This document shows, in pieces, positions 23,484 to 43,730 of a stretch of 64,000 nucleotides of DNA. How positions within the stretch are numbered: position 1 is the first letter of the stretch; each line of letters begins with the position of its first letter. The notes beneath the pieces were generated by a model. It saw only the letters and a list, made by a program, of their open reading frames with translations. It did no database searches and was not told where the DNA came from. The position numbers were made by a program, and so were the translations under genes. This stretch comes from an uncultured Planctomycetota bacterium (lineage in GTDB: Bacteria; Planctomycetota; Planctomycetia; Isosphaerales; Isosphaeraceae), in assembly GCA_963737655.1 (NCBI GenBank), contig CAVTTN010000002.1, positions 2,592,001 through 2,656,000 of the forward strand, read 5' to 3'.

Positions 23484-25626
23484 TCAGGGATTCGCCTTCG
23501 CCGGCAGCTTATCCACATCACTCCACAACGCCTTCCACTCCGCTCGCTCGGCGTCCGGCAGCCTGGAGAGGCCGGCCTCGTCGCGGACGCCGGAGAGGTC
23601 GGCGTCCTTCTTCCACCGGCCGAGTTTCTGCAAGATGACGGCCCGATTCTTCCCGGGATCGGCCTCCAGGGACCGCGACCACGCCGCCAGGTCCTCGCGG
23701 AGCCAGCCCAGGGCCTTCGCCCGCAGGGCCGCGCGGGCGGCCTCGTCGGGCTTCGGCTCGTCCTTGCCCTCGCCGCACCCGGCCAGCGACGCGGCGCAGG
23801 CGGTGTTGTAGCGATGCCCGCCCTGGCGGTCGTCGCCGAGTCTTCGGGTCAGCGGATAGCGCCTCGCTCCGGAGCCGTGTGGCCCCGGCATGCCGGCCCT
23901 GATCGTAGGCCATCTGGGCCAGGACCAGCCCCTCGGCGGCATCCTTCGGCCGATCCGTCCCGGCCAGGACGCCCCGAAGCTGGCCCGCCAGCGCCACCAG
24001 CCGCTCGGCGTCGCGGACCCACTGATCCGACGGGTAGGACCATCCCTTCTGCTTCGAGCCGAGCTCGTGGCCGAGTCGGAGCTCGGCGAGCGACTCGATG
24101 TATTCGCCGCGACTTCGAAGGAGATGCCCCAGGTTGCCGTGCGCGTCGGCGTACTTGGGGTCGATGCGGATGGCGTCGCGGTAGGCCGCCTCCGCCTGCG
24201 ACGCGCGGCCCTGGGGGAGGAGGGCGTTCCCGAGGTTGTAGTGCGCCATGGCGTGCTTGGGGTCGAGCCGGATGGCCTCGCGATACTCCACCTCCGCCTC
24301 CTCCAAGCTGCCCCGGGCGCGGAGCTTGGCCCCGAGGCAGACATGCGCAGTGGCGTTCTTGGCGTCGAGGCGGATGGCCTCGCGGCCCTACTGGTCGATC
24401 AGGAAGGCCCCGCCGCCGACGACGGTCGCCACCATGAGCGAGGCCGCGGCGCCGATCGTCATTCGCAGGCGGGCGCGGTCGGCCCGGGCCTTGGTACGTT
24501 CGGCCTCGGCTTTGGTCCGCTCGACCTCGGCCCGGGCGTCGGCCTCGACCCGGGCGATCTCGGCGGCGCGGAGCCGGGCCTGGACGGCCGCCAGGTGCGA
24601 GGCGATCGCTTCGGCGACCTCGGAGGCGTCGGTGGGGCGGTCGATCGGCTCCCGGGAGAGGCAACGATTGGCCAGGGCGATCAGGTCGGGGTCGGCCCCG
24701 CTCCGGTCGAGCCGGTCTCGGGCGTCGTCGAGGTCGGCGAACTCGGCCTTGCGGAAGGTCTCGGCGTGGTTTCGGCCGACGTAGGCGGGCTTGCCGGTCA
24801 GGATCTCGCAGAGGATGGCTCCGAGGCTGAAGACGTCGGAGGGCTTGCCCATCCGCTCGACCTCGCCGCGGGCCTGCTCCGGCGGCATGAACGACGGCGT
24901 GCCCATCCGCGAGCCGGCGGAGGTCTCGGCGGCGTCGGAGCCGTCGCGGCCGGAATCGATCACGCTGACGAGCGATTCCGTGTCGATGTGAGGCGCCGGC
25001 TCGGTCGTCCCGCCGGTGGTGAAGACCTTGGCGAGGCCCCAGTCCATCACCTGGACCTCGCCGAAGGCGCCAACCATGATGTTCGGCGGCTTCAGGTCGC
25101 GGTGGATCACCCGCTTCGAGTGGGCATAGGCGACCGTCTGCGCGATCTGGTGGAAGATCCCCACGAACCGGGGGAAGTCGTCGGCCGGCGAGGGCCGCTC
25201 CTTCAGGAGGGCCGTGAGGGTCCGGCCCTTCACGAGCTTCATGGCGAAGAACGGGCGGTCGTCGGGGAAGACGCCGATGTCGTGGATCGGGACGATCCCC
25301 GGGTGCTGCAACTGGCCGCCAATTTGAGCCTCCTCGAAGAACCGGCGGAGGATGTCGGGGCGGTCGCGGTGCCTCTCCAGGAGGACCTTGAAGGCCAGGT
25401 CCCGATTCAGCTCCAGGTCCCGGCCCTTCAGGGCCGCGCCCATCCCGCCGCGAGCGATCTCGCCGAGGATCTGGTATCGGCCGGCGGAGGCGGTGGGGTC
25501 GGGCCCTTCGGCTCCGGGTTCGGAGCCGTTCTCCCCGAGGTGGACGCTCGGAGGCTCCACCCCGGAGGGCGCGACGGTGTCCAGAGTCCGCGGGTCGTCG
25601 GTGAGGGAACGAAGGTCTCGGGCCAC
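23484..25626 (-). pseudogene. TPR Ser/Thr kinase 3, paralog of kinase 2, with internal deletion and frameshifts
   Basis: Kinase domain very similar to 13500(+); stop after the TM (24388); TPR and C-terminal parts in ORFs 23518-24306 and 23484-24344. Confidence 0.8.
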
Positions 25627-26612: not shown

Positions 26613-26723
26613 TGGCCCGGGGCGACGAATCGGGCGGCGATCACCGCCCTCCACTGGATCGGCGGATGAGGACTTGTCATGCTGGGCCGGCCCGAACCGA
26701 CGACCCGCCGGGGCCCCGCGACG

Positions 26724-27767
26724 ATGCCGCGAGACGAGACCTGCCTGCGCCGCCAGTGGGCGCTGCTCCGCGCCCTGTCGGCCGCAAGGACCGGCCTGAC
26801 CCTCCGCGAGATGGCCGCCGAGCTCGGCGTGACCGAGCGGACGATCCGCCGCGACCTCGACGTCTTCCGCGACGTCGGATTCCCCCTGGAGGAGCAGGTC
26901 GGCGACTTCGGCCGCAAGGCCTGGAGGGTCCGGCCGGGCGTCGGCCCCCCGCTGGCGTTCACCTTCGACGAGGCGGTCGCGCTGCACCTCGGCCGCAGGC
27001 TGCTGGAGCCCCTGGCCGGCACCTTCTTCGGGGACGCCTCCCTTAACGCGTTCCGGAAGATCCGCGCCGCCCTGGGCACCGAGGCCCTCCGCTACGTCGA
27101 TCGCTTCGCGGGCACCTTCTACCAGGCCGGCGTCGGCCTCGGCGACTACAGGGCCAAGGCCGAGCTGATCGACGCCCTGGTCGTCGCCGCCGAGGACTCG
27201 CGCGAGGCCCGGATCGTCTACCGCTCCGAGGGCGAGGCCGGGGCGTCGCCGCGTGAGGTCCGGCCCTTCGGCGTGGTGTACCACCGCGGGGCGCTGTACC
27301 TGGTCGCCGAGGACGCGGCCCAGGGGCGGATCAAGCACTACAAGATCGACCGGGTCGAGGAGGCCGAGGCCCTGGGCCGGAGGTTCGAGCGGCCCGAGGG
27401 CTTCGACCTGGCCGAACACATGGCCGCGGCCTTCGGCGTCTATCGGAACGGGGAGCCGACGGCGGTGAAGGTCCGCTTCGGGCCGGCGGCGGCGCGGTAC
27501 GTCCGCGAGGCCCGCTGGCACGAGAGCCAGGCCCTGACGGACCTGCCCGACGGCGGGGTCCTGGCCGAGTTCACCGTCTCCGGGACCGAGGCGATCAAGC
27601 GCTGGGTCCTCGGCTTCGGCGCCAAGGCCGTCGTCGTCGAGCCAGACGCCCTGAGGAGAGAAATCCAGCAGGAACTGGAGGAGACCCTTTCGGCCTACAG
27701 GGGCCCCGAATGCAGCAGCGCAACGCGAAGAGCCGCATCTCCGGTCGGCGACCGGCACCAACGCTGA
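26724..27767 (+). CDS. HTH-WYL-WCX transcriptional regulator
   Basis: TLREMAAELGVTERTIRRDL HTH; VRPFGVVYHRGALYLVA, YKIDRV; WVLGFGAKAVVVEPDALR. Confidence 0.92.
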   Translation: MPRDETCLRRQWALLRALSAARTGLTLREMAAELGVTERTIRRDLDVFRDVGFPLEEQVGDFGRKAWRVRPGVGPPLAFTFDEAVALHLGRRLLEPLAGTFFGDASLNAFRKIRAALGTEALRYVDRFAGTFYQAGVGLGDYRAKAELIDALVVAAEDSREARIVYRSEGEAGASPREVRPFGVVYHRGALYLVAEDAAQGRIKHYKIDRVEEAEALGRRFERPEGFDLAEHMAAAFGVYRNGEPTAVKVRFGPAAARYVREARWHESQALTDLPDGGVLAEFTVSGTEAIKRWVLGFGAKAVVVEPDALRREIQQELEETLSAYRGPECSSATRRAASPVGDRHQR

Positions 27768-27815
27768 CCAGGCTCGTCCCTGGTTGGGCCATCGTCCTGG
27801 GCCTCCCGACTGAAG

Positions 27816-27916
27816 GGGGCGAACGCCCGGAGGCGTCGTGGTCAGGTGAAAGAGCGGGCCTTGCGACGACCTCGCTTTTCTGCTCAACGCCGATACGGCG
27901 TCTTCTGTCGAGTCGG
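27816..27916 (-). ncRNA. CRISPR-like regulatory mini-array (CreA/CreR-type crlRNA): degenerate repeat 1 (27916-27880), 28-nt spacer (27879-27852), degenerate repeat 2 (27851-27816)
   Basis: R1 CCGACTCGACAGAAGACGCCGTATCGGCGTTGAGCAG keeps the TTGAGCAG handle and a hairpin; R2 TTTCACCTGACCACGACGCCTCCGGGCGTTCGCCCC aligns to the main repeat with a covaried hairpin. Confidence 0.8.
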
Positions 27917-27961
27917 GAGTCGGCCCAGGACGGCCGGATACGGATTTTGCCAGAGGGCTGG

Positions 27962-28024
27962 TTGTCAGTCGAGCCTCCTCAGCCGATAGTAATGGCGGAG
28001 GTTCGAGCCTACCTCGCTTTTCGT
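27962..28024 (+). promoter_or_regulatory. Putative sigma/cas operon promoter (TTGTCA-N17-GATAGT) followed by the crlRNA target (28011-28021) and PAM (28022-28024)
   Basis: -35 at 27962-27967, -10 at 27985-27990; ACCTCGCTTTT identical to 27869-27879. Confidence 0.6.
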
Positions 28025-28037
28025 TGGGAGACTAGAG

Positions 28038-28606
28038 ATGTCGGGACCAATTCCGATCGACTGGACGCCGGGGTCGCCCTTCATGCGGCTGCTCCAGGGC
28101 CTCACGGCTCGTTTCTCGAGCCGATGGGGGCCGGACGATCCATGGGAGGCGCTCTCCGACGTGTGGCTGGGGATACGGCGGGCCTTCGACGGGCAGGGGT
28201 TCGTGGATCCGTGTAGCGGCCTCCTTCGGACGGTCGTGGCGCGAGGGGTCATCAATCACTTCCGAAGTCGCGGAGTCAGGCCGCCCCGTCAACTTGCCTT
28301 CTCCTCGTTGGAGGCCCCTGAGGCTTTGCAGGTCGCCTCGGGCCATCGGGCGCCCGTCGAGGAGGTGATCGCCCGCGAAGGACGTCGCCTGATCGAGGCC
28401 CGGATCTCTGGGATGCCCCCCGCCAGGGCCGAGGCCGTCCGATCCCGCCTGGGGTATCCGGGGGCCCCGAGCCCTCGGAACTGGCCCAGATGCAGGGCAA
28501 GACCCGCCAGAGCGTGTACAAGCAGGCCGAGAAGGGCCTCTCGGACCTCCAACACTTCGCCGAGAGTTATTGCCTCGATCCGCGCCCCCAGGCGACGCCG
28601 CGATGA
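28038..28606 (+). CDS. Sigma-70/ECF-like sigma factor; one frameshift (~28475) makes it look fused to cas6
   Basis: Region 2-like LLRTVVARGVINHFRSR; region 4-like ISGMPPARAEAVRSRLG...ELAQMQGKTRQSVYKQAEKGLSDL in the -1 frame, stop at 28604-28606. Confidence 0.7.
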
Positions 28607-28622
28607 GGCGGAGGGAAAGACC

Positions 28623-29330
28623 ATGCCGACGATCGATCTTTCATTGGCCCTCCGGGGGGATACGATCCCCCTGGACTATGGGTATCCCCTCCTCTCGGCC
28701 CTGGCGAGGATCGTCCCCCAGATCCACGGGGACCGCAGGATCGGCGTCCACGGAGTCCGGGGCATCCGGCACTCGCCCCAGCGGCTGACGCTCGTGCGCC
28801 AGTCGCGATTGCGGCTGAGGATGCCGTCGGAGGAGATCCCGACCTACCTGGCCCTGGTCGGGGCCGAGATCGACCTGGACGGCTCCAGGTTATGGATCGG
28901 GCTCCCGGGGGCCGTCCGCGGCCCGGGGGGAGAGCGTGGGGCCCCGGTGGAGGCCATCCGGGTCGAGCCGCTCCGGCCCTCGGCGGACCTGTCCTCCCGG
29001 CTGGTCACGATCGGCCACTACCGCGAGCCGGGGCCGTTCGAGGAGGGCCTGAGACGGCAACTGGCCTCCCTGGGCGTCACCGCCGAGCCGAGCTTCCTCC
29101 CCTCGACCGACCCGAAGGGACGGGGCGGGCCCGAGAGGCGAGTCGTCCGGATCAAGGGGCGGAAGATCGTCGGCTTCCCGATCCGGATCTCGGGGCTGAC
29201 GGCTCAAGAGTCCATTCTTGTTCAGGAAAATGGGCTTGGATCGAGGAGGAGGATGGGCTGCGGCTTATTCGTCCCGACCCCGTCGCGATTAGCGACCGGG
29301 GCCCTTCCCCCGACCCCCTCCGAGGAGTGA
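28623..29330 (+). CDS. cas6: Type I-MYXAN Cas6 (Cmx6)
   Basis: IDLSLALRGDTIPLDYGYPLLSAL; C-terminal GLGSRRRMGCGLF; own RBS GGAGGG. Confidence 0.92.
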   Translation: MPTIDLSLALRGDTIPLDYGYPLLSALARIVPQIHGDRRIGVHGVRGIRHSPQRLTLVRQSRLRLRMPSEEIPTYLALVGAEIDLDGSRLWIGLPGAVRGPGGERGAPVEAIRVEPLRPSADLSSRLVTIGHYREPGPFEEGLRRQLASLGVTAEPSFLPSTDPKGRGGPERRVVRIKGRKIVGFPIRISGLTAQESILVQENGLGSRRRMGCGLFVPTPSRLATGALPPTPSEE

Positions 29331-29333
29331 GCG

Positions 29334-31857
29334 ATGACGACCGAAGGCCCCCTGCTCGCCAAGTCCCCCCCGAAGGGCGGCGGCCCGCCCCCCCACGAGA
29401 TCACCCTGATCGGCCATACGGAATGCGTCCTCCACGCCGTCGATGCGATCTTCGGCGAGAGGGGCCGTCCGACGCCGCTGGCCCGGTCCTGGCTCCGCTT
29501 CTTCGGGATCGCCGAGGACCAATTCGATCGATTCCGCCGCCACCTCCGGGTCTCCGCCGCGGCCCATGATTGGGGGAAGGCGAACGACGGCTTTGGCGCG
29601 ATGATCCGCAAGGAAGGGCAGCAGTCCGTCCGCCACGAGCACCTGAGCGGCTACCTCCTGGCCGACCTGCTCGCCGACCCCGGCGTCTCCGCCTGGCTGG
29701 AGGGCGCCGGGATCGATGGCCGGATCGTCCTCGCGGCGGTCCTCGGGCACCACGCGAAGGCGGCGAAGGCGGGGCGCGACCACGAGGTCGGCCAGTGGTC
29801 CGGCATCGCCGACTCGTTCCGGGTCCGCTCCGATCACACCGACTTCGACGCGATCTGGCGGCTGATCCAGGACGAGGTGGGGACTTCGGCGCCGGCGGGC
29901 CCGACGTTCCCGGGACGCCTGAAGCAGGCGCCCGCCTTCGAGCGGTTCAAGAGGCTCCACGCGACGCTCGGGGCCGAGCAGAAGCGCCTCCGAGAGAATC
30001 CCCAGGCCATGCGCTGGGTCGCGGCCGTCCGCGCCGGCCTGATCGCGGCCGATTCGGTCGGCTCGGCGTCCGTCCGCATGGAGGACCACGAGAAGGACCC
30101 GGGCCGGAGGATCGGCCGGTTCGTCGGCGAGTGCTTCGCGAAGGCCCTGACCGCCGAGGAGGTCTGGGGCAAGGTCGTCGTTGAGCGGGTAGGGAGCCTC
30201 AGGGCGAACCGGCGGTGGGACGACTCGAAGGGCGAGCGGGTCCGCCGCCTCGCCGGGTTCCACAAGTTCCAGGCGGGGATCGCGGTCCAGGGCCCTCGCG
30301 TCCTGATGACGGCGGCCTGCGGCTCGGGCAAGACGCTGGCGGCCTGGGTCTGGATTGTCGAGCAGTTGGAGAGGCGCGAGAGAAGGGATTCGCACGTCTC
30401 GCGTCCTCTTCCTCTACCCGACGCGGGCCACGGCCACCGAGGGCTTCCGCGACTACGTCTCGTGGGCGCCCGAGGACGACGCCGGCCTCCTCAGCGGGAC
30501 CGCCGCCTACGAACTGAAGGACATCTTCGGCACGCCCGACGACTCCGCCTCGAAAGACCCCCGGCGCGGCCGGAACTACCAATCGGAGTCGCGGCTCTTC
30601 GCCCTCGGCCACTGGAAGAAGCGGATCTTCTCGGCGACGGCCGACCAGTTCTTCCCGTTCCTCCAGTTCGAATACGGGCCGCTCTGCCTCCTGCCGCTGC
30701 TGGCCGAGTCGATCGTCGTCGTCGACGAGGTCCACTCGTTCGACCGCTCGATGTTCTCCACCCTCAGGCGGTTCCTCCGCGAGTTCCCCGCCGTCCCGGT
30801 CCTCTGCATGACGGCCACGCTCTCGAAGATCCGGAGGGGCGAGCTCCTCGACCCGGCCATCGGCGGCCTGACCGCCTACCCCAGGGAGATGCCGATCGAC
30901 CTCGAAGAGGACGCCACCCACCCCCGCTATCGCGTCGAGTGGATCGACCGCGAGGGGGCGGGACCCCTCGCCCGCGACGAGCTCGCCGCCGGCCGCCGCG
31001 TCCTCTGGGTCTCCAACCGCGTGGCCGACTGCCAGGACGCCTACGAGGCCGCCCGCGACCCCGACGAGGTCCATTCCGATTCGGATTCGATCCGGCGATT
31101 CTGCTACCACAGCCGCTACAGGCTCAAGGACCGCAAGGACCGTCATCGCGAGCTGGTCGAAGCGTTCCAGGACTCGGCCCGGGGAACGGCGGAAGGGCCG
31201 GGAGTCTTCGGCTCGACGACGCAGGTTTGCGAGATGTCCTTGGATTTGGATGCCCAAGTCCTGATCACGTCTCTCGCCCCGATCGCCTCCCTGATTCAAC
31301 GAATGGGAAGGTGTAATCGTGATTCTAAGAGGATGAAATCGGAGGGGCTCATCGGCCGGGTCTACGTGATCCGGCCCGAGCCCGGGAAGGAACTCCCTTA
31401 CGAAAAAGAGGAGCTGGAGGCGGCCGAGCGGTTCGTGGACGCGATCGTCGGCCTGCGGGGTCCCGAACAGGCGATTTCGCAGCAGAAGTTGGAGGACCTC
31501 TACCGCAAATTCGATCCCAGCCAGGAGGAACCCGAGTTGCTGAGCCCCTTCCTCGACTCCGGACCCTACGCCGCCGCGAAGGAGGCGTCGTTCCGCGACA
31601 TCGAGGCGCATACCGTCCCGTGCCTCCTGGACGACGACCTGAAGCACAAGGTCATCCCCATCCTCCAGGCCCATGACCCGGCCGAGCGGATCATCGACGG
31701 CTTCGTCGTGCCGGTCCCGAGGCGATTCGCGACCGAGCCGAAGCCCGAGGCAACCTGGTTCCCTCGCTGGCTCTCCGTGGCGAGGATGTCGGCCTACGAC
31801 GAGGCGATCGGCTTCGACGAACGGAAGATCGCCCCGGGCGGCGGGGGTGACGCATGA
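29334..31857 (+). CDS. cas3: Cas3 HD nuclease-helicase (frameshift ~30400)
   Basis: HDWGKAN, RHEHLS, HH, AACGSGKT, LYPTRATATEG, DEVH, TTQVCEMSLDLD, QRMGRCNR. Confidence 0.92.
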
Positions 31858-33767
31858 GCAAGGCCAAGGGCAAGGCACCGGCCGTCGAGTCGATCTCCCT
31901 GACCTTCGACCTCCACGACCTCCCCACCGCCCAGCACCGCGCGGGCCTGGCGGGCCTGATCTTCCAGGTCGATGCGATGGTTGCGTCGAAACGGCCCGGG
32001 GCGAGGACGCCGAAGCTCGGGCCGGTCACCGCGACCTCGGCGACCATCACATTCACGCCCGAGTCGATGAGTGGCGTCTTCGACGAGCTGTACGCGGCGA
32101 AGACCGTCGAGGCGAAGTCGGCGACGAAGTGGCCGGGAGACGCCGTTCTGAAGGAGGAGAAGATCGTCGAGAAACCGAACCCGAAGACGGGGAAGATGGA
32201 GAAGCACAAGGTCTTCATCTACGACGTCGTCCAGCCCCAGGCCCCGGCGCTGGCGGCCCACCTCGGCGACGGCCGCGAGGGGTGGCTCGACCTGTGGAGG
32301 CAGATGATCTGGGCGATCCCCCGGGGCGGCAACAACGTCCGGTCGCGGGCCCCGTTCCTGGAGTTCGCCGAGCGAGGGACGTGCGGCGAAGGGGCGGCGA
32401 CGTGGGAATCGCTCCGGAAATCCGACCCGGCGTCGCCTCGCATCGAGCCGATCTCCGGCGCCCTGATGCTCGGGGCCCAGGCGGTCAACGCCGAAGGGGT
32501 CCCCTTCGCGGGACGGGTCGATCAGAACCTCCTGCTCCACTTCTGGCAGGTGGTCGTCCATACGTTCGTCCCCCAGGTCGTCAGCAAGAAAGACGGCACG
32601 GTCGAGCGGGCCGGCTACTCGCTGGCCATCCCCGACGTGGCCGACCTCCTGGAATTCCGCGCCGAATTCCCCGAGATCCTCCAGTCGCTCGCCGCGGACA
32701 CCCCCGGCCACACGCCGTCGAAGGCCCGGCTCGACCTCCCTCAGCAAGCGGGCCTGGAGGTCCTCCGAATGGCCCGACGCCGGGCGATGGCCGCCGCCAG
32801 GGCCGGAGTGCCGGGCGGGACTCCCGAGGCGGTGGAGTCGGCGGCCATCGCCTCGGCCGACCTGCACGAGGCGCGGCGCCTCGCCGGCCGACACGCGGGG
32901 CCTTCGCCCGGTCGGAAGGCGGCGCGGCGGCTTCTCTCCGAAGGGGCCGTCGGCCTCTGGACCCAGAGCGTCCGCGCCGTCGAGACGTATCACATGCTCA
33001 AGCTCGGGAACAACGTGAAGCTCCTCGCGTTCGCTCGGGTCGCCGATCGCGCGGGCCTCGTCGATAAGTACGAGGGCATCGTCGAGAACTTCAAGAACCC
33101 GCTGTTCCGGGCCGCCCGCTGCCGGGCCCTGATCGAGGATCGCCCCTGGCATTGGGGGATGTCCGAGCTGTTCGCCGAGTACCCGCACCCGTTCTTCCTC
33201 GAAGGGGACGAGACGCCGAAGTACCTGCCCGGCTTCGGCCGCGACGTCGGCCGACTCTTCGGGGCCTATGAGAAGGAGATCCGCGACGTGAAGCCGGCCG
33301 AGATGGACAGCGACGAGCGGCTCAAGCGGCTCGGCACCATCATCCGCAACATGATGGTCAGCTACGTCAACCGCAAGGCGGCGAAGAAGCTCGGCCTCGA
33401 CTACGACGACTTCAGGGTCGAGGTGGTCGACGGCCGGAAGCGGAAGGTCGCGCCCGACCCCGAGAAGTTCCGCGAGAAACAGAGGCTCGTCTGCGACGAC
33501 GCCTTCCTCCAGATCCGGTCCCGCCACGACGAGGCCTTCCGCGACTTCTTCACCGACTCGATCCTCTCGGTCCCCCACTACTTCGACGCGAAGGCCGGGG
33601 ACCTCCCGTTCCTCATCCCGATCCTGATGACGCCCCCGGCCCGCGACCCCGTCGGCAACGCCCCCCTGAGCCGGGACGACATCCGGACCCTCGCGATGCT
33701 CGCCCTCTCCGCCCATTCGTCCAACGTCCGCAAGCGCGACCCCAGGAACGGAGACAACGCCCAGTGA
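31854..33767 (+). CDS. cas8a1: Type I-MYXAN large subunit Cas8a1/Cmx8
   Basis: LHDLPTAQHRAGLAGL, LGAQAVNAEGVPF, LLLHFWQ, IPDVADL; position between cas3 and cas7. Confidence 0.88.
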   Translation: MSKAKGKAPAVESISLTFDLHDLPTAQHRAGLAGLIFQVDAMVASKRPGARTPKLGPVTATSATITFTPESMSGVFDELYAAKTVEAKSATKWPGDAVLKEEKIVEKPNPKTGKMEKHKVFIYDVVQPQAPALAAHLGDGREGWLDLWRQMIWAIPRGGNNVRSRAPFLEFAERGTCGEGAATWESLRKSDPASPRIEPISGALMLGAQAVNAEGVPFAGRVDQNLLLHFWQVVVHTFVPQVVSKKDGTVERAGYSLAIPDVADLLEFRAEFPEILQSLAADTPGHTPSKARLDLPQQAGLEVLRMARRRAMAAARAGVPGGTPEAVESAAIASADLHEARRLAGRHAGPSPGRKAARRLLSEGAVGLWTQSVRAVETYHMLKLGNNVKLLAFARVADRAGLVDKYEGIVENFKNPLFRAARCRALIEDRPWHWGMSELFAEYPHPFFLEGDETPKYLPGFGRDVGRLFGAYEKEIRDVKPAEMDSDERLKRLGTIIRNMMVSYVNRKAAKKLGLDYDDFRVEVVDGRKRKVAPDPEKFREKQRLVCDDAFLQIRSRHDEAFRDFFTDSILSVPHYFDAKAGDLPFLIPILMTPPARDPVGNAPLSRDDIRTLAMLALSAHSSNVRKRDPRNGDNAQ

Positions 33768-34701
33768 ACCTCTTCGCCACCGTCCTGACCTACCCCGCCC
33801 CCTCGGCCAACTACCGCGGCGAGAGCGAGGAGAACCGCTCGGTGATCCAGAAGATCACCTACGGCCGGTTCGAGTACCCGATCATCTCGCCCGAGGCCAT
33901 GCGCAACGCCCTCCGCGAGACCCTGAGCGCGCTACGGCCTCCCCAGCAACCGCGAGCGGCTCCGCGACGAGGACCAACTCGCCGTCCGGTTCGCCGACTA
34001 CCCCGACCCGTCCCGGTATCGTCGACGACTTCTTCTTCGGCTACCTCGTCGCCGACCGCAAGAAGGTCGGCGAGGCGATGAAGAAGGCGGGCCGAGACAT
34101 CTCGAAGTTCCAGTACAAGCGCGACTCGATCCTCCGGATGAACCTGGCCAGGGGCCTCGAGCCCTACCGGAACAGCGTCGTCTTCACCCAGTCGCCCCTG
34201 ACGAAGACTTCCAAGGACGGGCCGGACTGGCAGAACTCCACCTCGTCGGCCCTCCTCCACCGCGAGACGGCCCTCACCGCCTTCCAGTACCCGCTGGCGC
34301 TGAACCTCGACGACTGCAAGCCGGCCATCCCGACTGGACGAAGGCCCTGCTGAAGGCCGTCGGCGAGCTGAACGACGTCGCCGGCAACCACGCCCGCAGC
34401 TACTTCGAGATGGCCCCGGCGAGCCTCGTCGTCCGCCTGACGAACCAACTGGTCGCCGGCTACGACACCTACGGATTCGACGCGGAGGGGGACTTCCCCG
34501 AGGTGATCGAGGGCATCCTCCGCGATCAGCCCGACTACCCGGGCCGCCGAGTTCTTCATCGCCGGCAAGATCGTCAAGGGGATGGCGGAGGACAGGCGGG
34601 CGAGGCTCGCAGACAAGGGCGTCACGCTCGAACGCGACCCGCGCCTCCTGCTCCAGGCCGTCGGCGACCGGGCCTTCCCGGCGAAGGGGAAGAGGCCATG
34701 A
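33764..34701 (+). CDS. cas7: Cas7/Cst2/DevR (about 4 frameshifts)
   Basis: PSANYRGESEENRSVIQK, SPEAMRNALRE, DDFFFGYL, LLHRE, VAGNHARSYFEMAPASLV across frames. Confidence 0.85.
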
Positions 34702-35446
34702 TCCGGCTCCGCGTGGAGGCCCCCTTCGCCGCCTTCCGGCCGTTTGCCGCGGGCTGGTATCGGCCGACGGCGGCCTTCCTGGCCCACTCGGCCGCCTACG
34801 GCCTGGCGATGAACCTCGCCGGGGTCGAGACCCGGCGCGACGACGGGGTCTCGGACATGACCGTCACCCGGTTCGGCCTGCCCCGGGCCCGGGTCGCCGT
34901 CGGGGCCGACCCGGCCCGGCCCCTGCCGGCGGTGCAGACGGTCTTCCAGCAGCTCCACAACTACCCCGTCGGGGCCTCGGGCAAGGAGAGGAAGGAGGAC
35001 GCGAAGGGGAACAAGTACAACATCACCCCCGTCCGCCGCGAGTTCCTCTCCGACGTCCGCGCCGTCGTCGCCCTCGACTTCCTCGACGACCCCGAGGAGA
35101 TCGAGGCCCGCGTCCTCGAAGGGCTGCGCGGGGACCTCCTCGCTCGGGGACGCGGTACGGCCTGCCCTTCCTCGGCGACAACGCGTTCCTGATCGACCGG
35201 ATCGCGATCGTCGACGAGACGACCCCGGCCCGCTGGTACTGCCGCCCCGACGCCGACGCCGGGGCCGTCGAGGGTTCCACGCGACTGACGACGTGGATCG
35301 ACCGTCGCGACATGTCGAGGACCCGGTCCGACGTCTACGCCCCGGCGCCCGACGCGACCGCCGCCGTGCCCGAATCGGCCTGGGCGTCGATCGACCCCCC
35401 CGCCGATCCGGCGACCCCCGAGCCGAAGGCCCGCAAGAAAGGGTGA
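34698..35446 (+). CDS. cas5: Cas5/DevS (frameshift ~35150)
   Basis: LRVEAPFAAFR, SAAYGL, QQLHNYPVG, KYNITPVRREFL, RYGLPFLGDN. Confidence 0.88.
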
Positions 35447-35454
35447 GATCCGCC

Positions 35455-37107
35455 ATGATCGCGACGGCACAAGACCCGCCCCTGCGGGTCATATCGCTCC
35501 ACGACCTGGGTTATTGCCATCGGCTGTTCTACCTGGCCGAGGTCGAGGGACTCCAGGCCCCCAACGCCGCCATATACGCTGGGAGGGAGCTCCACGCCTC
35601 GCTCGCGGCCGACGAGGACGGCGAGCGGACCCAGTTCGAGCTGGCCGATCCTGCCCTGGGCCTCGTCGGCAAGGTCGATGCCGTCCGCCGCCGTGATGGC
35701 TCGCTCGTTCCGTATGAGCACAAGCGCGGCAAGGCCCGGCGGGCCGACGACCGGACCCCCGAGGCGTGGCCGTCGGACCGCCTCCAGGTCGTCGCCTACG
35801 CCGCCCTGATCGAGTCGGCCACCGGCCAGGCCGTCCCCGAGGGCCGCGTCCGCTACCATGCCGACGGCGTGACCGTCCGCGTCCCCGTCGACGAGGCCGC
35901 CCGTGCCGACCTGGCCGGGGCGATCGCCACCGCCCGACGCCTCCGCGAGTCCACCGAGCGGCCCCCGGTCGCCGAGAACGAACGCCTGTGCGTCCGCTGC
36001 TCGCTCGCCCCGGTCTGCCTGCCCGAGGAGGTCCGCCAGGCCGAGAGGCCCGACCACCAGCCCGTCCGCCTCTACCCGCCCGACCGCGACGGCGCCAGCC
36101 TCCACGTCGTCACGCCCGGCGCGAAGGTCGGCCGCTCGGGCGATACCCTCGTCGTGACTCCCCCCGACGGCGACCCGCCCACGAAGCACGCCATCCGCGA
36201 GGTCGACTCACTCCTGCTCCACGGCTTCGCCCAGGCCACGACCCAGGCGCTGCAGCTCTGCGCCGAGAGGGGCGTGCCGGTCCACTGGGTCTCGGCCTCG
36301 GGCCACCACTCGGCCAGCCTCACGGCGTCGGCCGGGCAGGTCCAGCGGCGGCTCCGCCAGTACCGCGCCCTGGCCGACGAGGCGACCTGCCTCCGCCTGG
36401 CCAGGGCCCTGGCGCTCGGCAAGGTCGAGGGCCAGCACCGCTACCTCCTCCGCGCCTCCCGGGGCGACGAGGCCCTCCGCGAGGCGATGGCCCCGGACCT
36501 CGTCCCGATCCGAAACGCCCTGGCCTCGATCGCCGGGGCCGCCGACCGCGACTCCCTCCGGGGGCTGGAAGGCTCGGCCGCCGTCGGCTACTTCCGCGGC
36601 CTCGCCCGGCTCCTGGCCCCCTCGGTCCCGGAGGACCTCCGCTACTCGACCCGGACCCGCCGCCCCCCTCTGGACCGCTTCAATGCACTCCTGGGGTTCG
36701 GCTATGGCCTTCTGCACACGGCCGTGATGAGGGCCATCCTCGCGTCGGGACTTGAGCCGTCGCTCGGGTTCTTCCACACGCCCCGGAGCGCCGCCTACCC
36801 GCTGGTGCTCGACCTCATGGAGCTGTTCCGCGTGCCCCTCTGGGACATGGTCCAGGTCGGCTCGCTGAACCGGGGGCAGTGGGACCCCGACGCCGACTTC
36901 GTCGCCACGAAGGCCAAGGTCTGGCTCTCCGACGCCGGCCGGAAGAAGGCCATCGGCCTGTTCGAGGCGAGGCTCGACGAGTCGTGGAAGCACCCGGTCG
37001 TCGGCTACTCGCTGTCGTACGCGAGGGCGATCGAGCTGGAGGCGAGGCTCCTGGAGAAGGAGTGGAGCGGAGAGCCGGGCCTGTTCGCCCGGATGCGGCT
37101 CCGCTGA
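35455..37107 (+). CDS. cas1: Cas4-Cas1 fusion
   Basis: YCHRLFYL, GKVD, EHKRG, C..CSL..VCLPEE; Cas1 GLEG, RRPPLDRFNALL, GFFH, DLMELFR. Confidence 0.95.
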   Translation: MIATAQDPPLRVISLHDLGYCHRLFYLAEVEGLQAPNAAIYAGRELHASLAADEDGERTQFELADPALGLVGKVDAVRRRDGSLVPYEHKRGKARRADDRTPEAWPSDRLQVVAYAALIESATGQAVPEGRVRYHADGVTVRVPVDEAARADLAGAIATARRLRESTERPPVAENERLCVRCSLAPVCLPEEVRQAERPDHQPVRLYPPDRDGASLHVVTPGAKVGRSGDTLVVTPPDGDPPTKHAIREVDSLLLHGFAQATTQALQLCAERGVPVHWVSASGHHSASLTASAGQVQRRLRQYRALADEATCLRLARALALGKVEGQHRYLLRASRGDEALREAMAPDLVPIRNALASIAGAADRDSLRGLEGSAAVGYFRGLARLLAPSVPEDLRYSTRTRRPPLDRFNALLGFGYGLLHTAVMRAILASGLEPSLGFFHTPRSAAYPLVLDLMELFRVPLWDMVQVGSLNRGQWDPDADFVATKAKVWLSDAGRKKAIGLFEARLDESWKHPVVGYSLSYARAIELEARLLEKEWSGEPGLFARMRLR

Positions 37108-37129
37108 GGGGCCGAGGGAGGCCGCCGAG

Positions 37130-37429
37130 ATGAACGACGCGAAATGGTGGCTCGTGTCCTACGACGTCCACGACCCGGGCCGCCTGAAGCGATGCGCCGG
37201 GGTGCTGGAGGGCTCGGGCCAGAGGATGCAGCACTCGGTCTTCCGCTGCTGGATGACCCCGGCGCAGATGCACCGGCTGAGGTGGGAGTTGACGGGGGTC
37301 CTGGAACCCGAGGACGAGGTCCTGATCATCCCGCTGTGCCCGAGGTGCGTGGCCGGGATGGAGACGACGCACTCGGCGAAGAACGCCCCCGACTGGCCCG
37401 AGGCCCCGGAGGGCTACCGGATCGTCTGA
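37130..37429 (+). CDS. cas2: Cas2
   Basis: WLVSYDVHDPGRL...RMQHSVFRC...LCPRC. Confidence 0.95.
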   Translation: MNDAKWWLVSYDVHDPGRLKRCAGVLEGSGQRMQHSVFRCWMTPAQMHRLRWELTGVLEPEDEVLIIPLCPRCVAGMETTHSAKNAPDWPEAPEGYRIV

Positions 37430-37691: not shown

Positions 37692-40600
37692 GTGACCCCG
37701 ACGACGAAGCCTTCGGGCTTTGAGCAGCCCTGACCGACCAGTTCGCGGCCGACGTCGCGAAGGTGACCCCGACGACGAAGCCTTCGGGCTTTGAGCAGAT
37801 CGACCCGCTGTCGGCCCGGCTCTGGGACTCGAGTGACCCCGACGACGAAGCCTTCGGGCTTTGAGCAGACATCCTCTGGCAGGGGGCCGCGCTGACGACC
37901 GACCTGTGACCCCGACGACGAAGCCTTCGGGCTTTGAGCAGCATCCGTTCGAATCGGTCTCGGCGGCGGCGTTGCCGGTGACCCCGACGACGAAGCCTTC
38001 GGGCTTTGAGCAGTCCCGACCGTCGCCGAGCTGCTCGGGACCAGCGCGTGACCCCGACGACGAAGCCTTCGGGCTTTGAGCAGCGAAGTCCACCGACAGC
38101 TCCAATTACGATCCCGCCGTGACCCCGACGACGAAGCCTTCGGGCTTTGAGCAGCCGACCTGGCCGCGCTCGACGCGGCGCCCCGGCGCGTGACCCCGAC
38201 GACGAAGCCTTCGGGCTTTGAGCAGAGCTTGCCCACCGGCAGCGTGATCGGCTTGCCGCCGTGACCCCGACGACGAAGCCTTCGGGCTTTGAGCAGATCT
38301 TGTAGGCCAGGCCGGTCGGCTCCTGGGCGGGTGACCCCGACGACGAAGCCTTCGGGCTTTGAGCAGCTCTCGCTACTCTGGATGTCCCGGGCGCGATGGT
38401 GTGACCCCGACGACGAAGCCTTCGGGCTTTGAGCAGCCATGCAGAAGCTGAGGGCCGGCCTCGCCGGCGAGTGACCCCGACGACGAAGCCTTCGGGCTTT
38501 GAGCAGACACGCAAACCGGGACTTCCGTGCTCAGCGGCGACCGTGACCCCGACGACGAAGCCTTCGGGCTTTGAGCAGCCGCCGCCCTGGTGCTCGCCCG
38601 CGCGGCCTGGGAGCTGTGACCCCGACGACGAAGCCTTCGGGCTTTGAGCAGCCATCCTGGAGGCCATCGCGCTGCGGGTATCCCACCGTGACCCCGACGA
38701 CGAAGCCTTCGGGCTTTGAGCAGCGGAAGCCCTGACGCGGCCCGTCCGGCGCTGGGGGTCGTGACCCCGACGACGAAGCCTTCGGGCTTTGAGCAGATCG
38801 AGTCCGAGGTCTGCCCGGCCGCCGACGCCTTCGTGACCCCGACGACGAAGCCTTCGGGCTTTGAGCAGAAGCCTACGCGACGGCCGAGGCGAAGGAGGCC
38901 CGGGTGACCCCGACGACGAAGCCTTCGGGCTTTGAGCAGCCCAGCGAATTGGGGGGCAGCCCGCTGGAGACCTGGTGACCCCGACGACGAAGCCTTCGGG
39001 CTTTGAGCAGCCCTGGCCGCCGACCTCTCGCCTCCAGCTCCGGCGTGACCCCGACGACGAAGCCTTCGGGCTTTGAGCAGTCCTTAAGGCCGGGAGCGAT
39101 CTCAATGAGACCCTGGTGACCCCGACGACGAAGCCTTCGGGCTTTGAGCAGTCGCCCCCTACGCGCTGATCTTCCTCCGGCCGTCCGGTGACCCCGACGA
39201 CGAAGCCTTCGGGCTTTGAGCAGAGTTGCCGTTGTGCGTGATGAGGACCACGCTCGGGTGACCCCGACGACGAAGCCTTCGGGCTTTGAGCAGATCTCGC
39301 CCTCGTCCTCCAGCGCCTGGAGCGACCGTGACCCCGACGACGAAGCCTTCGGGCTTTGAGCAGAACCAGCGGGCCGTCGCCCAGCTCTCGGCCGCCGGCG
39401 TGACCCCGACGACGAAGCCTTCGGGCTTTGAGCAGTCCTCGCGCCGGAGGAAGAGCGCCTCGTCCCGCCTCGTGACCCCGACGACGAAGCCTTCGGGCTT
39501 TGAGCAGCGACGAAGGACGGCCAGGCAGGCGGCGATCGCCCGAGTGACCCCGACGACGAAGCCTTCGGGCTTTGAGCAGATCAGCCGGGCGGTGTGGCCG
39601 ACGGGGCCCTCGGGTGTGACCCCGACGACGAAGCCTTCGGGCTTTGAGCAGAATGCCCGGATCGTCGGCGCGTCGCTGGGCACCGACGGTGACCCCGACG
39701 ACGAAGCCTTCGGGCTTTGAGCAGTGTACGAGCAGGGCCTCGTCCTCCAGAACCTCTGGGTGACCCCGACGACGAAGCCTTCGGGCTTTGAGCAGATGGA
39801 TCGCTCGGTCGGGACCGCCTCGTCCACCGGGGTGACCCCGACGACGAAGCCTTCGGGCTTTGAGCAGCATCCGGCCCGGTGTCCCGCCCGCTGTTCAGGA
39901 GAGTGACCCCGACGACGAAGCCTTCGGGCTTTGAGCAGATCTCGGACGTCCCAACCGGCTGACCCTGGCGACGTGACCCCGACGACGAAGCCTTCGGGCT
40001 TTGAGCAGATCCTCGGCGACGGCTCGGGCGCCACGGCGTTCGCCAGTGACCCCGACGACGAAGCCTTCGGGCTTTGAGCAGCCGTCTGGGTCGGCGTGGC
40101 CCCGGCCCCGGGCACCTCGTGACCCCGACGACGAAGCCTTCGGGCTTTGAGCAGGCCACGATCAGGACGAGGGCCGTGACGTCGCGGGTGTGACCCCGAC
40201 GACGAAGCCTTCGGGCTTTGAGCAGTCTGGGAGGATCGCCTCGACCTCGATCCCCCGAGGGTGACCCCGACGACGAAGCCTTCGGGCTTTGAGCAGCTGA
40301 AGGTGGTGGACGTGACGGCCCCGATCAGGAAGTGACCCCGACGACGAAGCCTTCGGGCTTTGAGCAGCCGGGTACGACGCGATCCCCGAGGCGCTGCAGG
40401 CGTGACCCCGACGACGAAGCCTTCGGGCTTTGAGCAGTCGGCACGGACGGCTCGGAGATCGTCGCGGCCGGGCCGTGACCCCGACGACGAAGCCTTCGGG
40501 CTTTGAGCAGCCGTTCGGCCGATGGACGACCCTCGGGACGCCCTTCGTGACCCCGACGACGAAGCCTTCGGGCTTTGAGCAGATCCTCGTCGGGAACCGG

Positions 40601-43600: not shown

Positions 43601-43730
43601 ATGGGCACCACCCGCCGGAATTGTGACCCCGACGACGAAGCCTTCGGGCTTTGAGCAGCTCACGACCCTCCCCGGGAACCCGCTGCGCCGCCTGGTGACC
43701 CCGACGACGAAGCCTTCGGGCTTTGAGCAG
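37692..43730 (+). CRISPR. CRISPR array, about 85 repeats (hand count) of 36-bp GTGACCCCGACGACGAAGCCTTCGGGCTTTGAGCAG, spacers ~33-40 bp
   Basis: Essentially invariant repeats with ~71-bp period; one T>C variant seen at 43363. Confidence 0.98.

What the first reader, a model, noticed from the sequence alone, without database searches (positions are those of the whole stretch)
27816..28024. Hidden CRISPR-like mini-array whose spacer targets the leader of the cas operon
Seen: on the minus strand between the WYL gene and the sigma/cas operon, two degenerate repeat copies flank a 28-nt spacer, AAAAGCGAGGTCGTCGCAAGGCCCGCTC. R1 keeps the exact 8-nt handle TTGAGCAG. Both copies keep the hairpin with compensatory changes (GAAGCC/GGCTTT to GACGCC/GGCGTT). 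Spacer nt 1-11 and nt 13 match 28021-28009(-), and nt 12 is a flipped-out position in Cascade. The 5' flank is ACG. The site lies 16 bp before the ATG at 28038 and just downstream of a TTGTCA-N17-GATAGT promoter. Known: CreA/CreR-type crlRNAs use ~11-nt seed pairing to make Cascade repress without cleaving, and from memory related type I-B Cascades use an AYG PAM. Inference: Cascade autorepresses this operon.
Basis: partly seen in the sequence, partly recalled or inferred. Interest (0 to 1): 0.9.

Follow-up and report, generated by a model that had tools for sequence, protein, structure and literature searches.

The report
Mini-CRISPR that likely represses its cas operon
A degenerate two-repeat mini-CRISPR next to a type I-B cas operon carries a spacer whose first 11 bases match the operon's own promoter region, a known kind of self-regulation that related genomes show with different but co-varying sequences.

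Summary
On the minus strand, psiR1 (27916-27880), psiS (27879-27846) and a weaker psiR2 (27845-27815) sit between a WYL regulator gene and a type I-B MYXAN cas operon. PsiS nt 1-11 and 13 match 28021-28009(-), flanked 5' by ACG. The site abuts the only sigma70-like promoter found in 27600-28200. The split seed occurs nowhere else in the 7.6-Mb genome.

I found 16 distinct mini-array/target pairs, in Isosphaeraceae, other Planctomycetota, Cyanobacteria and Acidobacteriota. Their spacers differ, but each matches a nearby site flanked by ATG (14) or ACG (2). Identity falls to background at positions 6, 12 and 18, as expected for Cascade pairing. Shuffled seeds give 0.15 such AYG-flanked hits where 11 were observed.

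This is a CreR/CreA-type crRNA-like RNA, so a new member of a known kind. In the 12 Planctomycetota loci, the first gene after the target is a small sigma-region-4-like gene. That gene was not seen in loci lacking the mini-array.

Caveats:
- No RNA data are available.
- The PAM is only weakly supported by protospacers.
- cas3, cas7, cas5 and the sigma-like gene carry frameshifts in this assembly. rpoC does too, so these may be assembly errors.

The parts
26679..27767 (+). WYL/WCX-domain HTH regulator gene directly upstream of the mini-array
   Evidence: Pfam WCX 3.5e-21, WYL 4.2e-14, HTH_11 1.5e-7. Homologues lie directly upstream of cas6 in about 40 of the 79 public Cmx6 loci.
27815..27845 (-). 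psiR2: degenerate downstream repeat (CTGACCAC + hairpin GACGCC-TCCG-GGCGTT + CGCCCCC). It has no TTGAGCA handle.
   Evidence: Sequence and fold. It is 21/23 identical to the G006 counterpart and aligns with psiR2 of 7 relatives. The family covariance model does not detect it.
   Evidence: It starts directly after the handle. Its length fits the array spacers of 34-37 nt. Its seed is unique in the genome apart from the target.
27880..27916 (-). psiR1: degenerate upstream repeat with hairpin GACGCCG-UAU-CGGCGUU and the exact handle TTGAGCAG (27887-27880)
   Evidence: Local alignment to the array repeat and fold. It is the best hit outside the array of covariance model R1, which was built from foreign repeats (16.8 bits, E 0.033).
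27944..27972 (-). Candidate promoter of the mini-array: TCGACT (27972-27967), 17 nt, CAAAAT (27949-27944). This is inferred only.
   Evidence: An A-rich motif (GGAAAAA/CAAAAT) lies at a similar distance upstream of psiR1 in 8 aligned loci. The promoter scan did not call it, since it scores 8 of 12.
27962..27990 (+). Predicted cas-operon promoter TTGTCA-17-GATAGT
   Evidence: It is the only sigma70-like match in 27600-28200; shuffles give 0.0.
27988..28021 (-). Target (protospacer-like site). PsiS nt 1-11 match 28021-28011 and nt 13 matches 28009. A full-length footprint would reach the -10 box.
28022..28024 (-). PAM-like 5' flank ACG
   Evidence: AYG flanks 16 of 16 homologous targets. The two best array protospacer candidates with this flank are sp5 (3 mismatches) and sp3 (7 mismatches).
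28038..28606 (+). Small sigma-region-4-like HTH gene, the first gene after the target. It is frameshifted near 28460-28475 in this assembly, so it reads through into cas6 as a 430-aa ORF.
   Evidence: Homologous to separate ~180-aa genes in G496a (E 3e-18) and G006 (E 5e-15). See the alignment. The HTH continues in another frame. The profile hits sigma region 4 in PDB: RpoH 6.8e-4, FliA 0.002.
28623..29330 (+). cas6 (Cmx6)
   Evidence: TIGR02807: 177 bits, cut-off 98.85. Pfam Cas6 3.4e-50.
29334..37429 (+). Rest of the operon: cas3 (29334-31857, frameshift near 30364-30377), cmx8/cas8b (31854-33767), cas7 (33746-34689, at least 2 frameshifts), cas5 (34695-35443, 1 frameshift), cas4-cas1 (35293-37107), cas2 (37130-37429)
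   Evidence: tblastn with the Tautonia sociabilis orthologues.
37692..43730 (+). CRISPR array: 85 repeats and 84 spacers

Best explanation
The mini-array is a CreR/CreA-type 'cas-regulating' gene of a type I-B MYXAN system.

Inferred steps:
1. It is transcribed on the minus strand.
2. Cas6 cuts at psiR1 and psiR2, giving a crRNA-like RNA with the normal 5' handle.
3. Cascade (Cmx8-Cas7-Cas5-Cas6) loads this RNA and recognises the ACG-flanked site at 28021-27988. It pairs with the + (non-template) strand over about 11-13 nt only.
4. That pairing is enough for stable binding but too little to license Cas3.
5. The bound complex covers the -10 box, the start site and the 5' UTR of the operon (sigma-like gene, cas6, cas3, cas8, cas7, cas5...). 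This blocks RNA polymerase. Cas output then falls when free Cascade is plentiful and rises when Cascade is titrated or inhibited.

Shown here: the anatomy, the uniqueness of the match, its conservation with covariation, the 6-nt periodicity, the conserved AYG flank, and the overlap with predicted promoters.

Inferred only: transcription, processing, binding and repression.
For: Anatomy and chance:
- psiR1 has the exact 8-nt handle and is the top hit of a model built from foreign repeats.
- The 11-mer occurs twice in the window against an expected 0.01.
- The split seed occurs only at psiS and the target in the whole genome.

Covariation:
- 10 of 28 family-level loci (9 of 25 genomes) have psi-spacer/target pairs.
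- In 79 public loci, 24 orphan handles were found. 12 have a site with at most 1 seed mismatch within 1.2 kb, and 11 of those 12 are AYG-flanked. With shuffled seeds the means are 3.65 (any flank) and 0.15 (AYG flank), maximum 1 in 40 shuffles.
- In an unbiased pair test, 5 of 7 split-seed pairs preceded by GAGCAN have AYG on the partner, against 34 of 1677 other pairs.

Cascade signature across 16 distinct pairs:
- Positions 6, 12 and 18 match in 4, 2 and 2 of 16.
- Unselected positions 13-17 match in 13, 11, 9, 9 and 8 of 16.
- Later positions (19-35) mostly match in 2-8 of 16.

Geometry:
- The predicted cas-direction promoter abuts or overlaps the PAM-distal end of the site in the window, G006 and G478, that is 3 of 4 loci scanned (none called in G017).
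- The site lies 16-18 nt before the start codon in the window, G496a, G496b and G478.

psiR pattern: psiR1 keeps the 5'-handle bases, and psiR2 keeps the 5' part plus the hairpin. The CreR preprint describes the same pattern (section 8 read).

PAM in print: an ATG PAM is stated for cyanobacterial type I-B CAST systems (passages in PMC9881144, and 10.1101/2021.10.18.464778).
Against: - No RNA evidence of any kind is available, and no sigma70-like promoter was called for the mini-array on the minus strand.
- psiR2 is weak in the window and is not found by the model.
- The PAM is poorly supported by real protospacers. Of the three best hits for 84 spacers, two have ACG (3 and 7 mismatches) and one has TCG (2 mismatches). 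No full-length (near-complete) spacer match was found in the own genome, in phages, or in one viral-contig scan.
- 18 of 28 family-level loci and 68 of 79 public loci show no mini-array by my criteria, so the element is optional.
- In this assembly cas3, cas7, cas5 and the sigma-like gene are frameshifted. If these frameshifts are real, Cascade cannot be made here and the circuit is dead.
- The target overlaps a terminator-like hairpin (27998-28015), and psiS itself can fold.
Confidence: 0.75

Rival explanations
1. CreTA-like guard module. The crRNA-like RNA is the 'antitoxin'. The gene it directly represses, the small sigma-region-4-like gene placed first in the operon, is a cargo that becomes harmful or triggers a response when Cascade is lost or inhibited. 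Regulating cas dosage would then be secondary.
For: - In all 12 psi-positive Planctomycetota loci, the ORF(s) right after the target are sigma-like. This rests on homology or alignment in 7 loci and on inspection by eye in 5.
- No homologue was detected in 18 psi-negative family loci or in 68 psi-negative public loci.
- In many psi-negative loci the WYL gene ends within about 150 nt of cas6, which leaves no room for either element.
- CreA in haloarchaea represses both creT and cas8 (CreR preprint, passages).
Against: - The four psi-positive loci outside Planctomycetota have the target 70-240 nt before cas6 with no sigma-like gene, so the RNA works without it.
- The tblastn test returned mostly self-hits, so its sensitivity is low.
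- Nothing suggests toxicity. The protein looks like a transcription factor.
Confidence: 0.12
2. Fossil in this genome. The circuit is real in the family, but here the interference module is decaying, so the mini-array and its target are leftovers without current function.
For: At least 5 frameshifts lie in 9.4 kb of the operon: the sigma-like gene, cas3, cas7 (at least 2) and cas5. By contrast cas8, cas4-cas1, cas2 and cas6 are intact.
Against: - The assembly has indel errors elsewhere. rpoC, an essential gene, is split over two frames, and completeness is 87.7% for a 3-contig genome.
- 84 of the 85 array repeats are identical and one differs by 1 nt.
- The seed, PAM, handle and promoter are all intact.
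Confidence: 0.1
3. Not a guide RNA at all. On this reading the two 11-mers are repeated protein operators (for example for the WYL regulator) or parts of two terminator-like hairpins, and the resemblance to a repeat is a decayed array remnant or a chance likeness.
For: - Both copies sit in hairpin-forming contexts followed by T-runs on the + strand.
- The psiR1/psiS junction is 24/26 identical to the antisense of the HTH-coding part of the Kolteria novifilia WYL gene.
Against: - An operator or terminator model does not predict a conserved repeat handle exactly before one copy, AYG exactly before the other, and loss of identity at every 6th position in 16 loci with unrelated seeds.
- The Kolteria match is unique among the roughly 45 WYL genes held, and that genome has no target.
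Confidence: 0.03

Closest known systems
CreR (Cas-regulating RNA) from degenerate mini-CRISPRs (bioRxiv 10.1101/2023.03.10.532045; abstract, passages and section 8 read)
   Same: - A psiR1-psiS-psiR2 mini-array sits beside the cas genes.
- psiR1 keeps the 5'-handle bases and psiR2 keeps the 3'-handle part.
- The spacer is complementary only at its PAM-proximal end.
- The target is PAM-flanked and lies at the promoter of the effector operon.
- No obvious toxin gene is present.
   Different: - The subtype is I-B MYXAN, in Planctomycetota, Cyanobacteria and Acidobacteriota. Neither 'Myxoc' nor 'Planctomyc' occurs in that paper's main text.
- The flank is AYG.
- The first repressed gene here is a sigma-region-4-like gene.
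- Nothing is tested experimentally here.
Regulatory mini-arrays of type I-B upstream of cas6 (Shmakov et al. 2023, 10.1101/2023.03.03.530964; abstract and passages read)
   Same: The mini-array lies upstream of cas6. Its target lies between the mini-array and cas6, with a partial match of at least 10 nt and a PAM.
   Different: - Their survey used complete genomes of 2021, and their I-B examples named in the passages are Clostridium and Fusobacterium.
- WYL, Myxococcus and Planctomycetes are not mentioned in the main text. I did not read the supplements, and they may list such loci.
CreTA (CreA antitoxin RNA / CreT toxin) of haloarchaeal type I-B
   Same: A crRNA-like RNA with a seed-only match makes Cascade repress an adjacent promoter. 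CreA also represses cas8.
   Different: No small toxin RNA gene is recognisable here. The repressed gene encodes an HTH/sigma-like protein of unknown effect.
tracr-L autorepression of cas9 (type II-A)
   Same: A natural guide with an 11-bp match to its own cas promoter represses without cutting (as summarised in the introduction of 10.1101/2023.03.03.530964).
   Different: It belongs to class 2, uses a single effector, and has a different RNA architecture.
Negative autoregulation of the Myxococcus xanthus dev operon by DevT/R/S (Cas8/Cas7/Cas5 of the same MYXAN subtype)
   Same: It is the same CRISPR subtype. NCBIfam names the Cas7 family 'DevR family CRISPR-associated autoregulator'. That DevTRS repress dev is recalled from memory; only a search listing was seen.
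   Different: I found no orphan handle with a target in 8 loci of Myxococcus, Corallococcus, Vitiosangium and related records (L133, L140, L147, L150-L153, L160). No link is shown.

Membership tests
CreR/CreA-type regulatory mini-CRISPR (crRNA-like RNA gene) | Two repeat-like sequences flank one spacer-like sequence, outside the array and within or beside the cas locus | tested here: met
   psiR1 is at 27916-27880 (model hit 16.8 bits, E 0.033). psiR2 is at 27845-27815 (hairpin plus 5' part only). The element lies 122 nt upstream of the operon's ATG.
CreR/CreA-type regulatory mini-CRISPR (crRNA-like RNA gene) | psiR1 conserves the nucleotides that become the 5' handle, and psiR2 conserves the part that becomes the 3' handle | tested here: met
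   The handle TTGAGCAG is 8/8 identical to the array repeat. GGCGTTGAGCA is invariant in 41 foreign repeats and is followed by the spacer in all 16 psiR1. psiR2 keeps GAYGCC-N4-GGCG in 8 of 8 aligned loci and keeps TTGAGCA in only 1 of them (G017).
CreR/CreA-type regulatory mini-CRISPR (crRNA-like RNA gene) | The spacer is only partially complementary to its target, at the PAM-proximal seed | tested here: met
   In the window nt 1-11 and 13 match. In the 16 pairs identity decays to background after nt 17.
CreR/CreA-type regulatory mini-CRISPR (crRNA-like RNA gene) | The target is flanked by a PAM that the cognate effector accepts | tested here: inconclusive
   AYG flanks 16 of 16 targets (14 ATG, 2 ACG). 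An ATG PAM is printed for type I-B CAST systems. Array protospacer candidates are weak: ACG, ACG and TCG. No PAM assay was possible.
CreR/CreA-type regulatory mini-CRISPR (crRNA-like RNA gene) | The target lies in or next to the promoter of the effector cas genes | tested here: met
   The predicted promoter is at 27962-27990, and the site at 27988-28021 overlaps its -10 box. The same layout is seen in G006 and G478. These promoters are predictions only.
CreR/CreA-type regulatory mini-CRISPR (crRNA-like RNA gene) | The RNA is expressed, processed by Cas6 and loaded into Cascade, and repression depends on Cascade | not testable with these tools
   No RNA run was listed. There is no bench work.
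CreR as opposed to CreA (CreTA) | No coupled toxin gene under the same repression | tested here: inconclusive
   The gene directly after the target is a sigma-region-4-like HTH gene. Its effect is unknown.
Type I-B, MYXAN variant CRISPR-Cas | Signature proteins Cmx6 (Cas6), Cmx8 (Cas8b) and Cas1_MYXAN score above the curated cut-offs | tested here: met
   TIGR02807 scores 177 bits (cut-off 98.85). TIGR04413 scores 366.8 (cut-off 150). TIGR03983 scores 468.7 (cut-off 358.05). Cas5/Cmx5 scores 80.7, below its cut-off of 111.5, and Cas7 is fragmentary; both genes are frameshifted.

The most novel reading that the evidence does not exclude
In Planctomycetota the mini-array and the small sigma-like gene may form one portable cassette, inserted between the WYL regulator gene and cas6. 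Cascade occupancy of the site would then control a dedicated sigma-like factor. That factor would be released when Cascade is titrated by crRNAs, lost, or blocked by an anti-CRISPR. It would either boost cas/CRISPR transcription (a Cascade-sensing feed-forward switch) or act as a penalty for losing Cascade. This would be a protein-output version of CreTA/CreR logic, layered on top of the WYL sensor.
Probability: 0.25. Interest if true: 0.7.

Novelty: new member of a known kind. Interest (0 to 1): 0.55.

Why it matters
This extends RNA-guided Cas autorepression to the MYXAN variant of type I-B and to at least three further phyla. It rests on purely comparative evidence that is unusually specific: unrelated spacers each match their own promoter, the flank is a conserved AYG, and identity is lost at every sixth position.

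It gives a likely PAM (ATG, with ACG tolerated) for a subtype that has no published PAM in the papers I searched. It also identifies a compact natural CRISPRi circuit (mini-array, 34-nt site, promoter) that could be moved to a reporter.

The link between the mini-array and a sigma-like first gene, next to a WYL sensor, points to layered control of CRISPR immunity and can be tested directly.

Tried and rejected
- RNA evidence: no RNA holder was listed for 27600-28400.
- Rfam: no match in 27600-28200 at E up to 1.
- Earlier notes of this scan: nothing near the site.
- Protospacers for a PAM:
  - The own genome has no full-length spacer match.
  - The phage collection gave no match with the window array.
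  - Family genomes gave only three usable candidates.
  - The G485 array gave none with fewer than 6 mismatches.
  - 1153 spacers from all held arrays, compared with the own genome and all held loci, gave none.
  - One viral-contig scan with part of spacer 5 found nothing.
  - Myxococcus arrays against phages gave a 65-nt, 82% match to Mx8/Mx4 that is longer than a spacer and was not usable, or no match.
- Other handle variants: the psi-negative loci had no mini-array with relaxed handle motifs. The relaxed motif gave mostly noise, so only the strict subset was counted.
- Hairpin covariation in psiR1: not pursued, because the right arm GGCGTT is invariant and several psiR1 copies lack a stem.
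- 'psi region is a relic of a WYL gene': rejected. The 24/26 match is to one distant genome only, and the window's own WYL HTH is coded differently.
- 'Cas6 is fused to a sigma domain': rejected. The HTH continues in another frame, so the fusion comes from a frameshift.
- Link to the Myxococcus dev operon: no mini-array was found there.
Full report
**Context**

The window holds a type I-B MYXAN CRISPR-Cas locus on the + strand.
- A 430-aa ORF (28038-29330) has a C-terminal half that is Cas6/Cmx6.
- It is followed by cas3, cmx8/cas8b, cas7, cas5, cas4-cas1 and cas2.
- The array (37692-43730) has 85 repeats of GTGACCCCGACGACGAAGCCTTCGGGCTTTGAGCAG. Of its 84 spacers, 83 are 34-37 nt and one is 40 nt.
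- A WYL/WCX HTH regulator gene (26679-27767, +) lies just upstream.
- Public relatives place the locus in Isosphaeraceae (Planctomycetota).

The minus strand between the WYL gene and the operon reads ...CCGACTCGACAGAAGACGCCGTATCGGCGTTGAGCAG | AAAAGCGAGGTCGTCGCAAGGCCCGCTCTTTCAC | CTGACCACGACGCCTCCGGGCGTTCGCCCCC.

- psiR1 ends in the exact 8-nt handle of the array repeat and folds into a 7-bp hairpin.
- A covariance model built only from 41 repeats of other genomes finds 27880-27916(-) as its best full-length hit outside the array in 37.6 kb (16.8 bits, rough E 0.033; next best E 1.2).
- psiR2 keeps a repeat-like 5' end and the hairpin but not the handle, and the model misses it.
- The stem pair that differs from the local array repeat (C-G instead of A-U) is the family-typical state (U-G or C-G in 41 foreign repeats). 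The psi repeats therefore keep the ancestral stem, and the local array carries the double change.
- AAAAGCGAGGT occurs twice in the window, against an expected 0.01.
- The split seed AAAAG-N-GAGGT occurs only at psiS and at 28021(-) in the whole 7.63-Mb genome.
- The second copy has ACG on its 5' side, mismatches at nt 12 and matches at nt 13.
- It lies 16 nt before the ATG at 28038 and directly after TTGTCA-17-GATAGT (27962-27990). That is the only sigma70-like site in 27600-28200.
- By homology of CTGACCAC to the repeat start, I set the spacer at 34 nt rather than 28 nt.

**Comparative test**

I collected cas6 loci from relatives. In each locus I took the 36 nt after every TTGAGCA as a candidate spacer.

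*Family-level set*
- The set is 28 loci from 25 genomes. I left out the short partial cas6 matches L044-L048 and L009. L044-L048 gave no pair; L009 was not scanned.
- 10 loci in 9 genomes have a nearby site with at most one mismatch in seed positions 1-5 and 7-11. All 10 sites are flanked by AYG.
- The spacers are unrelated: AAAAGCGAGGT here, TTGCTTGACAC in G006, CAATATCCGGT in G485, TTGGTGGTCGT in G516, and so on. Each matches its own locus.
- An unbiased census of all split-seed pairs in these regions found 1684 ordered pairs. 7 have GAGCAN before one member, and 5 of those 7 have AYG before the other. Among the remaining pairs, 34 of 1677 do.

*Public set*
- A scan of public genomes with a Cmx6 alignment gave 79 loci.
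- 53 arrays there show the invariant 3' part GGCGTTGAGCA.
- 24 orphan handles lie outside arrays. 12 have a seed-matching site within 1.2 kb, and 11 of these are AYG-flanked.
- Shuffled seeds give on average 3.65 sites with any flank and 0.15 with AYG.
- Five of the 11 repeat loci of the first set. Six are new: Fuerstiella, a Planctomycetaceae MAG, two cyanobacterial MAGs and two Acidobacteriota MAGs.

*Position pattern in the 16 distinct pairs*

| Spacer positions | Pairs matching, of 16 | Used to select the pairs? |
|---|---|---|
| 1-5 | 16, 15, 16, 16, 16 | yes |
| 6 | 4 | no |
| 7-11 | 15, 16, 12, 12, 16 | yes |
| 12 | 2 | no |
| 13-17 | 13, 11, 9, 9, 8 | no |
| 18 | 2 | no |
| 19-35 | mostly 2-8 | no |

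- The selected positions are circular evidence. The unselected positions are independent evidence.
- A dip at every sixth position is what Cascade pairing predicts (established for type I effectors). A duplicated operator or a terminator would not predict it.
- psiR2 homologues keep GAYGCC-N4-GGCG and mostly lose TTGAGCA. This matches the CreR description (section 8 of 10.1101/2023.03.10.532045).

**PAM**

- AYG flanks 16 of 16 targets: 14 ATG and 2 ACG, the latter in the window and G006.
- Independent support from array protospacers is thin. Of 84 window spacers, the three best matches in 121 family genomes are sp5 (3 mismatches, ACG), sp67 (2 mismatches, TCG; a low-complexity spacer that hits many genomes) and sp3 (7 mismatches, ACG).
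- Every other search found nothing usable.
- In print, an ATG PAM is called 'expected with type I-B' for cyanobacterial I-B transposon systems (passage in PMC9881144). It was also used for a I-B2 CAST (passage in 10.1101/2021.10.18.464778). Whether those Cascades are close to the MYXAN variant was not tested.

**Geometry and likely mechanism**

- A full 34-nt footprint from the PAM (28022-28024) would span 28021-27988 and overlap the -10 box (27985-27990).
- In G006 and G478 a predicted promoter in the cas direction likewise abuts or lies inside the site. None was called in G017.
- The guide would pair with the + strand, which is the non-template strand.
- Binding through an 11-13-nt seed without further pairing is the condition under which CreA, CreR and tracr-L repress without cleavage.
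- The mini-array's own promoter is not established. A conserved A-rich motif about 45-60 nt upstream of the handle suggests TCGACT-17-CAAAAT (27972-27944, minus strand), back to back with the cas promoter. The promoter scan did not call it.

**The first regulated gene**

- The N-terminal 195 residues of the 430-aa ORF are homologous to separate ~180-aa genes that precede cas6 in relatives.
- Their alignment shows an ECF-sigma-like layout.
- The profile hits region 4 of sigma factors in PDB: RpoH 6.8e-4, FliA 0.002, and 27 of 30 listed hits are sigma factors. Pfam hits are only weak.
- In the window the HTH continues in another frame and ends in a stop before cas6. The 'fusion' is therefore a frameshift product.
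- All 12 psi-positive Planctomycetota loci have such ORF(s) right after the target, by homology in 7 loci and by eye in 5.
- The four psi-positive loci in other phyla have the target 70-240 nt before cas6 without this gene.
- No homologue was detected in psi-negative loci, but that search returned mostly self-hits.
- In many psi-negative loci the WYL gene ends within about 150 nt of cas6.

**Caveats**

- There is no expression data.
- Compared with the Tautonia sociabilis orthologues, cas3 has one frameshift, cas7 at least two and cas5 one. cas8, cas4-cas1 and cas2 are intact.
- rpoC is also split over two frames, while rpoB is intact. Completeness is 87.7% for a 3-contig assembly. Assembly indels are therefore likely, but real decay of the effector genes cannot be excluded.
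- The target overlaps a terminator-like hairpin (27998-28015), and psiS can fold on itself.
- One oddity remains. 26 nt spanning the psiR1/psiS junction are 24/26 identical to the antisense of the HTH-coding part (DLAVLLKAG) of the Kolteria novifilia WYL gene (E about 4e-4 to 8e-4). This is unique among the roughly 45 WYL genes held, and that genome has no target. I take it as coincidence.

**What is known and what is new**

- Autorepression of Cas by degenerate mini-CRISPRs is published for I-B, I-E and V-A (CreR preprint). Mini-arrays targeting the region upstream of cas6 in type I-B are also described (Shmakov et al.).
- The main texts of these two papers and of 10.1101/2024.12.27.630466 do not contain 'Myxoc' or 'Planctomyc'. 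The latter two also lack 'WYL', and the last lacks 'sigma'.
- A search for mini-array, cas6, WYL, sigma factor and type I-B found nothing closer. I did not read the supplements.
- I found no mini-array in 8 Myxococcus-group loci. The classic dev-operon autoregulation, which I recall from memory and saw only as a search listing, is therefore not explained by this element.

**Verdict**

This is a real and well-supported new member of a known kind. It gives a useful comparative signature and raises an open question about the sigma-like gene.

Noticed in passing
window 28460-28475, 30364-30377, 33927-34549, 35135-35156: The sigma-like gene, cas3, cas7 (at least 2) and cas5 carry frameshifts relative to the Tautonia orthologues. 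cas8, cas4-cas1, cas2 and cas6 are intact. rpoC elsewhere in the genome is also split over two frames, so assembly indels are likely but real decay is not excluded.
   Followed up: partly
window 27867-27892 versus L014 3284-3309 (Kolteria novifilia WYL gene): The psiR1/psiS junction is 24/26 identical to the antisense of the HTH-coding segment of a distant WYL gene. No other WYL gene among about 45 shows this, and that genome has no target. It is unexplained and is probably coincidence.
   Followed up: partly
window 37692-43730 versus foreign arrays (alignment A4): The local array repeat differs from the otherwise invariant family 3' part. It has GGCTTTGAGCAG instead of GGCGTTGAGCAC, with a compensating change in the left stem arm. 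The two psi repeats keep the family form.
   Followed up: partly
window 27998-28015 (+): A terminator-like hairpin with a T-run (GAGGT..ACCTC GCTTTTCGTT) lies in the predicted 5' UTR, and its 3' half is the target seed. It could be an attenuator or could affect access to the site.
   Followed up: no
L049, L043, L050/L036, L051/L039 (G496, G478, G465, G495); L149: Several Planctomycetota loci carry two cas6 genes. They are about 0.7-1.4 kb apart in G496 and G478, and about 3-4 kb apart in G465, G495 and L149. The mini-array, target and sigma-like ORF(s) lie in front of the second cas6. In G465, G495, L149 and L165 the sigma-like gene is split into two ~85-aa ORFs, and the target is on the sense strand.
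   Followed up: partly
L016 1650-1790 (-) and L016 8501 (+): G017 has a three-repeat mini-array (two spacers) upstream of the operon. Only the first spacer has a target. A further orphan repeat lies inside the cas operon.
   Followed up: no
L003 2728-2756 (+): In G006 a second predicted promoter (TAGACA-17-TACTAT) lies inside the target site and points towards the mini-array. Cascade binding there could therefore also repress the guide's own gene.
   Followed up: no
L089 1680-2030 (G002, same genus as the window): A small array of 5 repeats in the family-typical form (…GACGCCCACGGGCGTTGAGCAC) is present in a same-genus genome in which no cas6 was found. That genome is 71% complete.
   Followed up: no
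window 3345-4210, 15435-16244, 24126-24384 and 46600-51410: There are long runs of 102-nt (TPR-like) coding repeats, and a very large gene with degenerate ~190-210-nt repeats (GNxxxG/ISGN-type motifs). They are unrelated to the finding.
   Followed up: no
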